From the NCBI GenBank assembly GCA_963737645.1, contig CAVTTX010000004.1, forward strand, positions 287,010 to 351,009: a stretch of DNA of 64,000 bases, in the 5' to 3' direction. Positions 45,877-48,289 of this stretch are shown piece after piece. The translations under genes and the position numbers were made by a program. The notes below the pieces were generated by a model. The model saw nothing but the letters and a program-made list of their open reading frames with translations, was not told the origin of the DNA and made no database searches. The DNA is from Candidatus Acidiferrales bacterium. GTDB taxonomy: Bacteria; Acidobacteriota; Terriglobia; Acidiferrales; UBA7541. Each line of letters opens with the position of its first letter. Within the stretch, counting starts at the first letter, position 1.

Positions 45877-46859
45877 AGCTTCTCGCCCCAGATCAACACG
45901 ACAAAACCTGCCACAACAAGCTGACGTCCTTCTGGTTAAGCGGCTACTTAGCCTTAAACGAAAAGTTAGCCGTTGCGGGTTTTCCGGCAGACGCTGTGAC
46001 TTTTTGCGTCTGGGTCCCATATTGTTCATGCCAAGCCGTTACCGTGTAATTCCCTGGCGGTAATCCCTTGATCGTGTAGGAGCCCTTGTCATCGGTCACC
46101 GCATACGGCCCTTTCACAACCACAAAGTATCCATGCATCCAAGGGTGAATGTTGCATTTGACGGGAATCGCAACTTCCTCGTGTTGCCAACTCTTCACGA
46201 TGGGAGGAGCGCCACTAGGTTGCGATTCATTCCAAGGAATATTGCCGGTCAAAGGATTGGGGAGCGGGTGGATGTTGTGCGTCGTCTGGTCGCTGGTCAC
46301 CACTTGATACTTCTGATTCACATCCATCGGCAAGACGTGGGGCGTATACATGCAACCTTTTTGATCGAATTCCGGAGGCGGGCCGGAGGGAACCTTGCTG
46401 AGTTCCGCGGCGCTCAATCCTTCGGAAATGTACAGAACCACATTCTCGAGTCCTCCCCCTTCGCCCACGACCACATCTTCCAAACGTACCGGCGGTCCGT
46501 TCTGATGGAACTTCACGCAATAGGGGTCCTTGGACATATCGATGCCCCTCATATGCGGTGCCGTGCCGTCTAGTTTCACCGTTCCGCTGATTTCTCCGTC
46601 GGCCGGTGCACCGCCGGTCTTGACGGAGTAAACCAATCCGCAGAACAGCAATAACATCGCCGCTGCGGAAATATTCAGCCCGTGTTCTATAAAGGGGAGA
46701 GTCAAGAGAAAAAACATCTGCGGCGACTGGAAGGAGCAAAAATGTTTGCTGCGCTCTCCAGCCCATGTCCTGTTGAGAGACTCTGGGGTGTTCGCTCTTC
46801 GTAGATCCATTCTGTTATCGTGACGGCGCTTTCGGATTCTGAAGCAAGACAAGCTGCGT

Positions 46860-47060
46860 GGTTGAAACGTGTCAACCATAGTTCTATCTGAGGCTCAAGG
46901 CCTATAGCTTTTTCTGGTTATCCGAGGGGGCCTATAGTTTACCAAGAGACTCGTGGTGCTCGGAGCACACTCTCTGCCTAACGGGCTAATGGAGACTCAC
47001 CCTCGAACCAAAGCGTCAGAAGAACTGAAAAGCCATCACCAGAAATAAATCCAGCAAAGG
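46860..47060 (-). ncRNA. Putative bridge/seek RNA of the first IS110 (ends approximate)
   Basis: Two tracts matching the target flanks bracket a hairpin; one tract matches the element end (see findings). Confidence 0.7.
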
Positions 47061-47079
47061 ACGATTCTCGATCCGACGC

Positions 47080-48147
47080 TCAAGCTGCTTGTTGTTTCAG
47101 ATGTTCAGCGTCGAAACAAACTCCTTTCTTCCAAACCAGCAAAGTGACGGCGGCGATCTTGCGCGCCAAGGTGAGCCGCGCCAAATGCGGTTTCACGCCT
47201 CGGCTGACGCAAGCTTGGTAAAAATCTTGGAAAGGTCCTGCGGTCGAGGCGGCTCGCGTCGCTGCACCCTTGAAGATATTTTTCAGATCGTGGTTGTGGT
47301 TGATATTGAGCCCGCGGACGGCCAGAACTTTCTTGGAGCGTTTGAACTGGCCACCGACGATGCGGTATTCCCCGCTGCGGTACGTCCGCAATGCCAAACC
47401 GCAGTAGGCCCACAGTTGTCGCTTGGTCCGGAAGCGGTTCGGTGTCTGCATCAGCGCAAGCAGCAGAACGGCGCGGATGGGGCCGATGGAGGGAATCTGC
47501 CGCAGCAACCTCATGTTCAGATGCTTCCGGCCTTCCGCCAATAGTTCTCGCCGCACGCCCTGGCGCAATACCGCTAAGGCGTCGAACTGCTGGTAATAGA
47601 GTTCCGCACGGCGGCGTACACCCACTTCCGAAATCTTCGCGAGCCATTCCGCACGGTAGCGCGGTGCGTAGACCTGCTTGCCGGCACAAGGAATGCCCCA
47701 GCTTCGGTAGATGGCCTTCAGCCGACTCATCACCCGCGTCAAATCACGAGTGATCGTAAGGTAGCTGCGTGCCAGTTCCTTCAGCGTGCGCATACCCTGT
47801 TCGCCGTGGTACACCGGGTTGAGCTTGTTTAGATACAGCAGCTCGGACAGCTTGCGGGCATCGATGCGGTCACTCTTGTTCCCAGCTTTCAACAGGGCAT
47901 TCTTGCGCGGATCGCAGGCCACCACGCGGGTGACGTGAGGCTGGAGCAGATCGTACAACCACGCCGCCCAGGTGCCTTCTTCAAAGGTCACGTGCAAACT
48001 GCCGCGCAGGCCACCAATAAACTGAAGGATCGTCTCGGCTTTCGTTTCGAGAATGGCCTCCATCACCAAATTTCCGTGCGAATCCCGAACGGCCACCGAA
48101 ATCGTTGCCTGATGCACATCCAGCCCAATATACTTGGCGTCATTCAT
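47080..48147 (-). CDS. IS110 DEDD recombinase/transposase
   Basis: IGLDVH, FEEGT, KSDRIDA RuvC-like DEDD; IPSIGPI and RTLARKIA C-terminal motifs. Confidence 0.95.
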   Translation of the reverse strand: MNDAKYIGLDVHQATISVAVRDSHGNLVMEAILETKAETILQFIGGLRGSLHVTFEEGTWAAWLYDLLQPHVTRVVACDPRKNALLKAGNKSDRIDARKLSELLYLNKLNPVYHGEQGMRTLKELARSYLTITRDLTRVMSRLKAIYRSWGIPCAGKQVYAPRYRAEWLAKISEVGVRRRAELYYQQFDALAVLRQGVRRELLAEGRKHLNMRLLRQIPSIGPIRAVLLLALMQTPNRFRTKRQLWAYCGLALRTYRSGEYRIVGGQFKRSKKVLAVRGLNINHNHDLKNIFKGAATRAASTAGPFQDFYQACVSRGVKPHLARLTLARKIAAVTLLVWKKGVCFDAEHLKQQAA

Positions 48148-48289
48148 GAGGGCGCTCCTTGTTGTTGTAGGCGTTGATACAGACGATCAAAACCTACTCC
48201 ACTCGGGCGCCCTTTTATAATGCGTTTACCATTCATCTTGATACTCCTTTGGTTGGCCGGTGTAAGGAGATCTGCACGAGAAAACACCT

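What the first reader, a model, noticed from the sequence alone, without database searches (positions are those of the whole stretch)
46670..48250. IS110 inserted in codon 4 of the copper-protein gene; precise excision restores a perfect ORF
Seen: SD AAAGGAG and ATG AAT GGT AAA are stranded at 48236-48225. Joining through one AAC core gives MNGKHGLNISAAAMLLLFCG..., a normal signal peptide, in frame. The circle junction would read TTGACT-N17-CATTAT. Known: IS110 elements excise as circles without a scar, and junction promoters are typical. Inference: the insertion removes the gene's start and probably separates cyc2/cytochrome from the oxidase genes, so the pathway is either recently lost or reversibly switchable.
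Basis: partly seen in the sequence, partly recalled or inferred. Interest (0 to 1): 0.72.

Follow-up and report, generated by a model that had tools for sequence, protein, structure and literature searches.

The report
RNA-guided IS1111-type insertion splitting an operon gene
A 1,540-bp jumping gene that chooses its landing sites with its own small guide RNA has recently landed, at a look-alike of its normal target, 13 bases into a respiratory-operon gene of a soil acidobacterium; a near-identical co-occurring strain still has the intact gene, so this is a fresh knockout by a known kind of element, and nothing here shows it acts as a switch.

Summary
A 1,540-bp element (window 48223..46684, minus strand) lies between ATG AAT GGT AAA C and AC GGG CTG. 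It encodes a 355-aa IS110-family DEDD transposase. Removing it with one AAC gives a 250-aa ORF whose N-terminus, MNGKHGLNI, matches an intact 96%-identical homologue. The empty site exists in a ~91%-identical sister lineage (L001/L002). It also exists in a near-identical strain: one contig in run X22 skips exactly 46684-48223.

The element has the IS1111-type layout: subterminal inverted repeats and a 396-nt 3' non-coding region carrying a seekRNA/bridge-RNA-like target loop. Across 62 natural insertion sites its two guide segments covary with the flanks (0 of 5,000 permutations). The usual target is a REP-like palindrome. The gene site matches the left guide (8 nt), but matches the right guide only when shifted 2 nt, so it is a near-cognate, off-target-like hit.

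The "reversible switch" reading is not supported. The empty-site strain also lacks a second, IS3-family insertion 4 kb away (absent from exactly 52065-53361) and differs by four SNPs, so the empty state looks ancestral. No circle junction was found. The "copper protein" and "cyc2" labels remain unverified. This is a new member of a known kind, of modest interest.

The parts
46684..48223 (-). Complete IS1111-type (IS110 family) insertion sequence, 1,540 bp, counted with the right-hand AAC core.
   Evidence: Relatives align exactly to positions 1-1540. Unitig breaks and a ~8x depth step fall at 46684 and 48226. The X22 contig skips exactly this stretch.
47080..48147 (-). Transposase/recombinase gene, 355 aa (DEDD RuvC-like N-domain plus Transposase_20 C-domain).
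   Evidence: Pfam PF01548 at 9.6e-14 and PF02371 at 4e-13. NCBIfam 'IS110 family RNA-guided transposase' scores 120.8 bits, below the 140-bit cut-off. The identical protein is found on 16 contigs.
48210..48219 (-). Left subterminal inverted repeat TATAAAAGGG, preceded by the 4-nt terminal extension GCAT (48223-48220).
   Evidence: Comparison of the two ends gives 9 of 10 matches. Invariant in 66 relatives.
46688..46697 (-). Right subterminal inverted repeat CCCCTTTATA, followed by the terminal extension GAAC (46687-46684).
46700..46705 (-). TTGACT, the -35 half of the predicted circle-junction promoter. It lies 17 nt from CATTAT (48222-48217) once the ends are joined.
   Evidence: Sequence. 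TTGAC(T/A) and the 17-nt spacing are kept in the relatives. Function is inferred; no circle was observed.
48217..48222 (-). CATTAT, the -10 half of the predicted junction promoter.
46916..47009 (-). seekRNA/bridge-RNA-like target-binding domain (element positions 1215-1308). An outer stem and an inner hairpin enclose an internal loop that carries the two guides.
   Evidence: RNAalifold and pair counts: 99% of cells paired, 6 pairs with compensatory changes against 2.2 in shuffles, and slid controls at 30-49% paired.
46980..46989 (-). Guide UUAGCCCGUU, complementary to the top strand of core plus right target (AAC|GGGCTAA).
   Evidence: Covaries with right flanks: own 6.21 of 7 against cross 4.69, 0 of 5,000 permutations.
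46937..46947 (-). Guide UCUUGGUAAAC, the same sense as left target plus core, so it pairs with the bottom strand.
   Evidence: Covaries with left flanks: own 5.08 of 6 against cross 4.24, 0 of 5,000 permutations.
46851..46910 (-). Second conserved stem-loop domain of the 3' non-coding region. It contains AUAGAAC (46887-46881), which matches the element's right end plus core and makes it a candidate donor-end-binding part.
   Evidence: Conserved helices 4-6 and the 7-nt match. The role is inferred and not resolved.
48224..48250 (-). Stranded 5' end of the interrupted gene: SD AAAGGAG, ATG AAT GGT AAA C, including the left target TGGTAAAC. It now heads a 30-codon ORF that ends in an ATGA overlap with the transposase start.
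45944..46683 (-). Remainder of the interrupted gene (codon 5 position 2 to the stop): a CarboxypepD_reg-domain periplasmic protein with invariant Cys/His/Met residues.
   Evidence: Pfam PF13620. 6,578 homologues. Invariant C181-x2-H184-x2-M187, H140 and H143.
46674..46683 (-). Right flank ACGGGCTGAA. It contains the cognate right target GGGCTGA displaced by 2 nt (AC).
   Evidence: In register 1 of 7 pairs, shifted +2 gives 7 of 7. 9-bp complement UUAGCCCGU/ACGGGCTGA.

Best explanation
An active, multi-copy (~8 per genome) IS1111-type member of the IS110 family has recently inserted 13 nt into a gene of a cytochrome / aa3-type oxidase operon in a soil Acidobacteriota (Ca. Acidoferrales-like) strain.

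Shown:
- The element encodes a DEDD recombinase.
- In its 3' non-coding region it encodes a structured seekRNA/bridge-RNA-like RNA. The internal loop of this RNA carries one segment complementary to the top strand (core AAC plus right target) and one complementary to the bottom strand (left target plus core).
- The normal target of this clade is a ~70-bp REP-like palindrome, ...CCTG(G/A)T(A/T)AAC|G(C/G)(G/C)(C/G)T(T/A)A(C/T)CG...

Why this site (inferred from sequence): codons 2-5 of the gene happen to read TGGTAAAC-AC-GGGCTGA. That is a perfect 8-nt left half plus core, and a right half present but displaced by 2 nt. The element therefore landed there as a near-cognate, off-target-like event.

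Consequences:
- Shown: the insertion adds no duplication and detaches the gene from its SD and ATG.
- Inferred: the allele is null or severely impaired.
- Shown: the allele is polymorphic. Six soil samples carry it, one carries only the empty site, and one appears mixed.
- Inferred: the empty allele is the ancestral state of a sister sub-lineage, not an excision product.
- Inferred: excision as a circle that rebuilds a TTGACT-17-CATTAT promoter is mechanistically possible. It would restore the ORF exactly, but it is expected to be rare.
For: - Family and anatomy.
- Exact boundaries and no duplication.
- Copy number ~8 from depth ratios, and distinct sites of the identical element.
- seekRNA structure covariation.
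- Guide-target covariation over 62 sites with about 15 different guide variants, 0 of 5,000 permutations.
- The order 'top-strand match 5' of bottom-strand match, overlapping at the insertion point' is what was shown experimentally for IS1111-type seekRNAs: PMC11187229.
- REP-like nature of the usual target. No such target in the 64-kb window.
- The window site is the worst in-register right-target match of all sites (1 of 7) but 7 of 7 at +2.
- The empty allele in X22, with 4 SNPs and a second IS also absent. That second element is IS3-family.
- The filled junction also appears in an independent study (X6 contig 46670-47386).
Against: - No read-level data. Only assembled contigs were available, and these drop rare variants, so low-frequency excision or circles cannot be excluded.
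- The direction of the polymorphism (insertion or excision) is inferred from parsimony, not observed.
- The +2 register explanation is a sequence observation. No experiment shows that this recombinase tolerates a 2-nt bulge.
- Loss of function is inferred. A 311-aa in-frame ORF starts inside the element (46879), and an internal Met14 exists.
- The donor-binding part of the RNA was not resolved.
Confidence: 0.75

Rival explanations
1. Reversible phase-variation switch. The element excises precisely at an appreciable rate and toggles the operon gene on and off, as IS492 does in the eps locus of Pseudoalteromonas atlantica. Here the operon's own transcription and the stranded SD/ATG would drive transposase expression.
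For: - Scarless excision would restore the ORF.
- The element lies in the operon's orientation, with no terminator-like site upstream of or inside it on that strand.
- The stranded ATG opens a 30-codon ORF ending in an ATGA overlap with the transposase start.
- For IS621, excision needs transcription through the element (PMC13626964).
- Both alleles occur within one study, and the X23 unitigs stop exactly at the junction as if both were present.
Against: - The only clean empty allele belongs to a sub-lineage with 4 SNPs that also lacks an IS3-family insertion.
- No circle junction or go-back joint appears in eight DNA runs, the fetched loci or the metagenome contigs.
- The right flank is out of register with the guide. 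Flank-guide matching was needed for ISEc11 mobilisation, and IS621 excision is intrinsically less efficient than insertion.
Confidence: 0.1
2. The insertion is not inactivating. The gene is still expressed, either as the 311-aa fusion that starts inside the element (46879) or from Met14. Downstream oxidase genes are transcribed by read-through, so the phenotype is mild or neutral.
For: - An in-frame ORF runs from element position 1345 into the gene and is called as the gene in MAG annotations.
- No minus-strand terminator-like site was found.
- The filled allele is the majority allele in six samples and occurs in a second study.
Against: - No SD precedes either alternative start.
- A 65-residue basic extension before the hydrophobic segment, or a start within the h-region, is not a normal Sec signal.
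- All 26 aligned homologues start within a few residues of MNGK/MKGK.
Confidence: 0.12
3. Assembly artefact: a repeated IS was wrongly threaded into the operon by the assembler.
For: - The element is an ~8-copy repeat.
- One MAG contig (L006) joins a different left flank to the same right junction. This shows that chimeras or rearrangements across this repeat do occur.
Against: - Both junctions are carried by unitigs that run 25-30 nt from unique flank into the element in six independent runs.
- The same structure occurs in independent assemblies L004 and L010 and in a second study, X6.
Confidence: 0.02

Closest known systems
IS1111-type insertion sequences with a seekRNA (ISEc11, ISPa11, ISKpn4; Siddiquee et al. 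2024, PMC11187229)
   Same: - DEDD transposase.
- Long non-coding region downstream of tnp.
- Subterminal inverted repeats with short terminal extensions.
- No target duplication.
[quoted passage not shown]
- Natural re-targeting by changes in those segments.
   Different: - Host phylum is Acidobacteriota.
- The transposase is 355 aa (330-350 is typical).
- The C-terminal motif reads GLALRTYRSG, with Leu in place of the usual Pro.
- The NCBIfam IS110 model scores below its cut-off.
- The RNA itself has not been detected experimentally.
IS621 / bridge RNA system (Durrant et al. 2024; Hiraizumi et al. 2024, 2026, PMC13626964)
   Same: - RNA-guided recombination with a conserved core.
- REP-like natural targets.
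- A promoter rebuilt at the circle junction.
- Excision that restores the target.
   Different: - In IS621 the RNA is encoded in the 5' (left-end) non-coding region, and the guide order is reversed.
- The core is CT rather than AAC.
- A clear two-loop (target plus donor) architecture could not be demonstrated here. Only the target loop is solid.
- No Rfam family matches.
ISPpu9/ISPpu10 of Pseudomonas putida (PMC12288879)
   Same: - IS110-family elements present in several copies.
- They insert into REP sequences.
- For ISPpu10, the minicircle forms a strong hybrid promoter.
   Different: No sequence relationship was tested. ISPpu9 carries a separable sRNA module, which is not seen here.
IS492 in the eps locus of Pseudoalteromonas atlantica (Perkins-Balding 1999 and Higgins 2007; titles seen, content from my own knowledge)
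   Same: An IS110-family element inside a gene, whose precise excision restores the reading frame.
   Different: For IS492, high-frequency excision and phenotype switching were measured. Here there is no evidence of excision, and the empty allele looks ancestral.

Membership tests
IS110 family (ISfinder sense) | DEDD (RuvC-like) transposase with PF01548 N-domain and PF02371 C-domain | tested here: met
   51.9 and 50.0 bits, both above the Pfam cut-offs.
IS110 family (ISfinder sense) | NCBIfam NF033542 'IS110 family RNA-guided transposase' at its curated cut-off | tested here: not met
   120.8 bits against a cut-off of 140. This is a divergent member; the match covers residues 6-276.
IS110 family (ISfinder sense) | Insertion without target-site duplication; a short core shared by target and element end | tested here: met
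   Empty sites carry one AAC and filled sites carry AAC at both junctions.
IS110 family (ISfinder sense) | Sequence-specific target choice | tested here: met
   62 unique sites share ...G(A/G)T(A/T)AAC|G..(C/G)T.A.CG.
IS110 family (ISfinder sense) | Circular intermediate with a junction promoter | tested here: inconclusive
   TTGACT-17-CATTAT would form, and its spacing is conserved. No circle junction was found in contigs or collections.
IS1111 subgroup | Subterminal inverted repeats with terminal extensions | tested here: met
   GCAT-TATAAAAGGG against GTTC-TATAAAGGGG, 9 of 10.
IS1111 subgroup | Long non-coding region downstream of tnp | tested here: met
   76 nt upstream and 396 nt downstream.
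IS1111 subgroup | seekRNA with the top-strand match 5' of the bottom-strand match, overlapping in the target | tested here: met
   UUAGCCCGUU (top) lies 5' of CUUGGUAAAC (bottom), and they overlap at AAC. The criterion comes from PMC11187229. The RNA itself was not observed.
IS1111 subgroup | Transposase C-terminal motif GL-P----S(t)G | tested here: inconclusive
   The sequence reads GLALRTYRSG. G, L and SG are in place, but Pro is replaced by Leu (translation; motif).
Bridge RNA (IS621-type, two programmable loops) | Target-binding loop with two guides flanking a core | tested here: met
Bridge RNA (IS621-type, two programmable loops) | Donor-binding loop with two guides matching both element ends | tested here: inconclusive
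   Only AUAGAAC (right end plus core) was found in the second domain. No convincing complement of AAC|GCATTAT was found.
Bridge RNA (IS621-type, two programmable loops) | Match to a curated RNA family | tested here: not met
   Rfam 15 gave no match at E<=1 over 46000-49000.
IS-mediated phase-variation switch (IS492-like) | Filled and precisely excised alleles interconvert within one clone | tested here: inconclusive
   The empty allele is seen only in a lineage with 4 SNPs that also lacks the IS3 insertion. The X23 unitig breaks suggest a mixture, but this cannot be phased.
Cupredoxin / type-1 copper protein (label given to the interrupted gene) | Cupredoxin fold or family match | tested here: not met
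   No cupredoxin hit in Pfam, NCBIfam or the PDB profile search. The AF2 model has pLDDT 65, and amicyanin hits have probability of only 0.1-0.16.
Cupredoxin / type-1 copper protein (label given to the interrupted gene) | His...Cys-x2-His-x2-Met ligand set conserved | tested here: met
   H140, H143, C181, H184 and M187 are invariant in 26 homologues. This is motif-level evidence only.
Cyc2-type outer-membrane cytochrome (label given to the 506-aa neighbour) | Family match; single N-terminal CXXCH fused to a porin | tested here: inconclusive
   One CSACH motif near the N-terminus. No Pfam or NCBIfam family. The barrel was not modelled.

The most novel reading that the evidence does not exclude
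The insertion is a self-regulating genetic switch. The element sits 13 nt into an operon gene, in the operon's orientation. Operon transcription, together with the gene's own SD/ATG (through the 30-codon ORF that ends in an ATGA overlap with the transposase start), would drive transposase and seekRNA synthesis. Excision, and so restoration of the gene, would then be induced exactly when the respiratory operon is switched on.

A second, more modest novel point: this recombinase may accept right targets displaced by 1-2 nt (the window site, L019 and L035). No such register slip is reported in the passages of the IS110/IS1111 papers I read here.
Probability: 0.08. Interest if true: 0.65.

Novelty: new member of a known kind. 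Interest (0 to 1): 0.3.

Why it matters
For the organism: one abundant soil Acidobacteriota strain carries a fresh knockout of a conserved periplasmic redox-type protein inside a cytochrome/oxidase operon, while a co-occurring near-identical strain keeps the gene. This is a natural pair for asking what the gene does. The same lineage shows a burst of IS activity, with two insertions in 6 kb.

For the field of RNA-guided recombinases: this clade offers dozens of natural guide variants, each with matching REP-like targets (62 sites here). It also offers natural examples of near-cognate insertion into a coding region, with the right target out of register. That is useful raw material for off-target rules. 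None of this changes the known picture of IS110/IS1111 biology.

For annotation: MAG pipelines call a 311-aa chimeric ORF across the junction and so hide the disruption.

Tried and rejected
- Rfam scan of 46000-49000 at E<=1: nothing.
- Other copies of the element's ends in the window: none.
- Cognate target in the window (CTGGTAAACGGGCTAAC with <=3 mismatches, and degenerate REP-like patterns): none.
- Circle junction: absent from the 92 fetched loci, and the 29-nt exact pattern is absent from metagenome contigs. A 22-nt pattern gave one hit, L093. On reading, this is only the left junction of a relative whose left target resembles the element's right end.
- No 'goes back' joints in eight DNA runs.
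- Hybrid outward or inward promoters in the integrated state: the scan found no minus-strand site, and the -35 position upstream of CATTAT reads GTATCA, 3 of 6.
- Single-sequence fold of the target loop is not better than shuffles (z = -1.07). The case for structure rests on the alignment.
- Donor-binding guides: searched by complementarity and not resolved.
- Copper-protein identity: the Pfam, NCBIfam, PDB profile, AF2 and Foldseek searches gave no cupredoxin support.
- Metatranscriptomes: contigs of relatives cover the element, with the deepest bin on the conserved RNA core. That segment also cross-maps in DNA runs, so I do not count this as evidence of a discrete RNA.
- The IS492 papers (PMC1794265, PMC93982) are not held.
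Full report
1. THE OBSERVATION

Read on the minus strand, the sequence runs as follows:
- ...CCAACCAAAGGAGTATCAAG ATG AAT GGT AAA C (48236-48224)
- then GCATTATAAAAGGGCGCC... (from 48223)
- then, 1,540 bp later, ...TTCTCTTGACTCTCCCCTTTATAGAAC (ending at 46684)
- then ACGGGCTGAATATTTCCGCAGCG...

Joining the flanks through one AAC gives ATGAATGGTAAACACGGGCTG and a 250-aa ORF beginning MNGKHGLNISAAAMLLLFCGLVYSVKTGG. The joined ends of the element would read TTGACT-17 nt-CATTAT. 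Every statement of fact in the finding is correct at the stated coordinates.

2. THE BOUNDARIES ARE EXACT

Three independent lines fix the ends.

(a) Relatives. The identical transposase occurs on 16 contigs, and 80 relatives of 75-92% protein identity were fetched from Acidobacteriota MAGs. For 66 copies the blastn alignment to the element stops exactly at positions 1 and 1540. All of them begin GCATTATAAAAG..., end ...TTTATAGAAC, and are preceded by ...AAC.

(b) Assembly graphs. In the Logan assemblies of eight soil runs from one study, depth jumps about 8-fold (for example 13 to 105), and unitigs break exactly at 46684 and 48226. This also gives a copy number of about 8 per genome.

(c) Empty sites.
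- The restored protein has 6,578 homologues. The best, P0001 (250 aa, 96% identical), starts MNGKHGLNICAAAMLLLFGG.
- Its contigs read ...CAAGATGAACGGTAAACACGGGCTGAATATTTGC..., with the cytochrome c gene upstream and COX2, COX1 and COX3 downstream.
- That locus is colinear with the reconstructed empty locus over 4,884 nt at 90.7% identity.
- More tellingly, run X22 of the same study holds a 3,277-nt contig (depth 8.5). It matches the window without a mismatch on both sides and skips exactly 46684-48223. Its sequence after 46686 reads TACCATTCATCTTGATACTCC.

The insertion therefore adds 1,540 bp and no duplication. The AAC is a core shared by the target and the element's end.

3. WHAT THE ELEMENT IS

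Protein. The 355-aa ORF (48147..47080) carries Pfam DEDD_Tnp_IS110 and Transposase_20. NCBIfam's 'IS110 family RNA-guided transposase' model matches at 120.8 bits, below its 140-bit cut-off, so this is a divergent member.

Layout. There are 76 nt upstream and 396 nt downstream of tnp. The ends carry subterminal inverted repeats: GCAT-TATAAAAGGG against GTTC-TATAAAGGGG, 9 of 10. Siddiquee et al. use these features to separate the IS1111 type from the IS110 type (PMC11187229).

Guide segments. In the 3' non-coding region I found two segments:
- UUAGCCCGUU (46989..46980), complementary to the top strand AAC|GGGCTAA.
- 43 nt further 3', UCUUGGUAAAC (46947..46937), the same sense as the left target plus core and therefore complementary to the bottom strand.
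The order (top-strand match first) and the overlap at the insertion point are what was shown for the seekRNAs of ISEc11, ISPa11 and ISKpn4.

Structure. The two segments lie on opposite strands of an internal loop. The loop is closed by a 14-bp outer stem (GGUUCGAGGG.G.GUCU / AGGC.CCCCUCGGAUAACC) and by an inner stem and hairpin. On 28 distinct relatives:
- 99% of pair cells are standard pairs.
- 6 pairs show compensatory double changes, against 2.2 in shuffles.
- Sliding the partners by 1-3 columns drops pairing to 30-49%.
A single-sequence fold is not better than shuffles, and Rfam has no match.

4. THE GUIDES REALLY GUIDE

Across the relatives the two loop segments vary, and the flanks of each copy vary with them. 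Examples:
- UAAGCGC goes with GCGCTTA.
- UAACGGC goes with GCCGTTA.
- UAAAUGC goes with GCATTTA.
- UAAUCCC goes with GGGATTA.
- GAAUCCC goes with GGGATTC.
- UUACCCC goes with GGGGTAA.
- On the left, UUGAUU goes with TGATT, UUGAUA with TGATA, UCGAGA with (C/T)GAGA, and UUGGUA with TGGTA.

Over 62 unique sites, a copy's own right guide pairs with 6.21 of 7 flank positions, against 4.69 for guides of other variants. The left guide pairs with 5.08 of 6 against 4.24. None of 5,000 permutations reaches either observed sum.

The usual target is a short, REP-like palindromic repeat. Similarity between sites extends only about 15 nt to the left and about 55 nt to the right of the insertion point. IS621, ISPpu9/10 and ISPa11 also target REP-like sequences.

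5. WHY CODON 4 OF THIS GENE

The window copy's guides specify ...(C/T)TGGTAAAC|GGGCTAA. Other sites occupied by the identical element fit this:
- CCTGGTAAAC|GGCCTAAC
- CCGGGTAAAC|GGGCAGAT
- TTGGTGGAAC|GGGCTAAC
- CCTGGTTAAC|GCGCTTAT

The gene reads GAATGGTAAAC|ACGGGCTGAA. The left half plus core is an 8-nt perfect match. In register, the right half pairs at 1 of 7 positions, the worst of all sites. Displaced by 2 nt, after a tandem AC, it pairs at 7 of 7 with one wobble. Two other sites (L019, L035) look like +1 displacements.

No cognate or REP-like target exists in the 64-kb window. Only three TGGTAAAC octamers occur outside the element's own guide, and neither of the other two is followed by GGGCT.

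My reading (inference) is that this was a near-cognate, off-target-like insertion made possible by a chance resemblance. It was not an insertion into a site evolved to receive the element.

6. IS IT A SWITCH?

Mechanistically, excision is possible.
- IS621 forms circles and leaves restored sites in vivo.
- Its excision needs transcription through the element and the RNA.
- Its excision is intrinsically less efficient than insertion (PMC13626964).

Some features here would favour expression of the transposase.
- The element lies in the operon's orientation, with no terminator-like site on that strand.
- The stranded SD/ATG opens a 30-codon ORF (MNGKRIIKGRPSGVGFDRLYQRLQQQGAPS*). Its TGA overlaps the transposase ATG.

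The population data point the other way. Laying contigs on 36000-55900 shows three things:
- The X22 lineage differs from the window by four fixed SNPs (40792, 50584, 53922, 55516).
- It also lacks, exactly, a second mobile element at 52065-53361.
- X1, X23 and X24 are identical to the window and carry both insertions.

That second element is IS3-family, with rve, rve_3 and HTH_21 domains. It splits a glycosyltransferase gene. From general knowledge, IS3-family elements do not normally leave scarless empty sites.

The element-to-flank depth ratio in X22 is also lower: about 2.5-4.7 against about 8.

Two independent precise excisions plus four SNPs is less parsimonious than a sister sub-lineage that never received either insertion.

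In X23 the flank unitigs stop exactly at 46686 and start exactly at 48224. This is what a mixture of both alleles would produce, but contigs cannot phase it.

No circle junction was seen anywhere. Finally, for ISEc11 the flanks of the donor copy had to match the seekRNA for mobilisation. The out-of-register right flank here should therefore make excision harder.

I conclude that the allele is a recent loss-of-function insertion segregating between closely related strains. Reversibility is possible in principle but unsupported.

7. CONSEQUENCES FOR THE GENE AND OPERON

Gene order on the minus strand:
- a 506-aa protein with one CSACH motif and no family hit
- a dihaem-type cytochrome c (PF13442, PF00034)
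- the interrupted gene
- COX2, COX1 and COX3

The interrupted gene loses its SD, its ATG and the first four codons. The alternatives are a 311-aa ORF that starts inside the element at 46879, which is what MAG annotations call, and an internal Met14. Neither has an SD, and neither gives the N-terminus shared by the 26 aligned homologues.

Whether the downstream oxidase genes are affected is unknown. Read-through is plausible.

The 'copper protein' label rests only on an invariant H...C-x2-H-x2-M set.
- Pfam sees only a CarboxypepD_reg domain.
- The NCBIfam and PDB profile searches give no cupredoxin.
- The AF2 model is poor (pLDDT 65).
- Its amicyanin matches are insignificant.

The 'cyc2' label is likewise architectural only. 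The host belongs to Ca. Acidoferrales/Terriglobales-like Acidobacteriota, judging by the record titles of the relatives. That order has been implicated in soil iron cycling (PMC7980381).

8. COMPARISON WITH WHAT IS KNOWN, AND VERDICT

In mechanism and anatomy this is an IS1111-type, seekRNA-guided member of the IS110 family, a kind described in 2024. It is a new, divergent member from a phylum where none has been studied.

It differs from IS621-type bridge systems in three ways:
- the RNA lies at the 3' end
- the guide order is reversed
- the core is AAC

I could not demonstrate a donor-binding loop. There is only a 7-nt AUAGAAC match to the right end in a second conserved domain.

The event itself, an IS in a gene, is ordinary. 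Two things go beyond routine:
- the natural guide-target covariation series
- near-cognate sites with a displaced right half

Its structural inference is right. Its 'switch' inference is not supported, and two of its gene labels are unverified. Interest is modest.

Noticed in passing
window 52065-53361 (+): A second mobile element: IS3-family, with orfB at 52403-53335 carrying rve, rve_3 and HTH_21 domains. It splits a GT1-type glycosyltransferase gene (C-terminal part 51515-52099, N-terminal part 53325-54161, both minus strand). Its depth is about 6x the flanks. It is absent, exactly, in run X22 (joint 52064->53362).
   Followed up: partly
window 36000-55900: The X22 strain differs from the window by four fixed SNPs (40792 G>A, 50584 C>T, 53922 T>C, 55516 T>A) and lacks both IS insertions. 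X1, X23 and X24 are identical to the window. Two sub-lineages therefore co-occur within one study.
   Followed up: partly
window 48236-48144 (-): The stranded start codon heads a 30-codon ORF (MNGKRIIKGRPSGVGFDRLYQRLQQQGAPS*). Its stop TGA overlaps the transposase ATG (ATGA). The host gene's SD could therefore feed ribosomes to the transposase start.
   Followed up: partly
window 46879-45944 (-): A 311-aa in-frame chimeric ORF starts inside the element (element position 1345) and runs into the interrupted gene. MAG annotations call it (or a 288-aa version) as the gene, which hides the disruption.
   Followed up: partly
L006 2400-3990 (GCA_049698915.1, JBAWBM010000007.1): The same right junction (element followed by ACGGGCTGAAT, then COX2/COX1), but the left flank is a different locus (a He_PIG/Pel9A-like gene; ...GGGGTACGGGTAAC|). 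This is either an assembly chimera across the repeat or recombination between two element copies.
   Followed up: no
L019 and L035, right junctions: Two relatives whose right flank matches their guide only when shifted by +1 nt (GGTGCTAA for guide UUAGCGC; TGTGCTTT for UAAGCGC). These parallel the +2 shift at the window site.
   Followed up: partly
L093 150-175: A relative inserted after ...CCCGTTATAGAAC. Its left target mimics the element's own right end (TTTATAGAAC). It looked like a circle junction in the pattern search but is not one.
   Followed up: yes
L015, L016, L086; L014, L070, L073, L075, L082, L056: Some relatives are split by another insertion inside their 3' non-coding region or tnp. 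Others sit within 0.1-1.5 kb of a second, more distant family member. Both patterns suggest hot spots or nested insertions.
   Followed up: no
window 46873-46931 and 47075-47116: Two short segments are by far the deepest bins in unrelated DNA and RNA runs: the conserved core of the seekRNA-like region, and the tnp 3' end. In those runs contigs diverge on both sides, so many other IS lineages share these pieces.
   Followed up: no
window 49176-50696 (-): A 506-aa protein with a single CSACH haem motif near the N-terminus and no Pfam or NCBIfam family. It is the first gene of the operon. Its layout is Cyc2-like but remains unverified.
   Followed up: no
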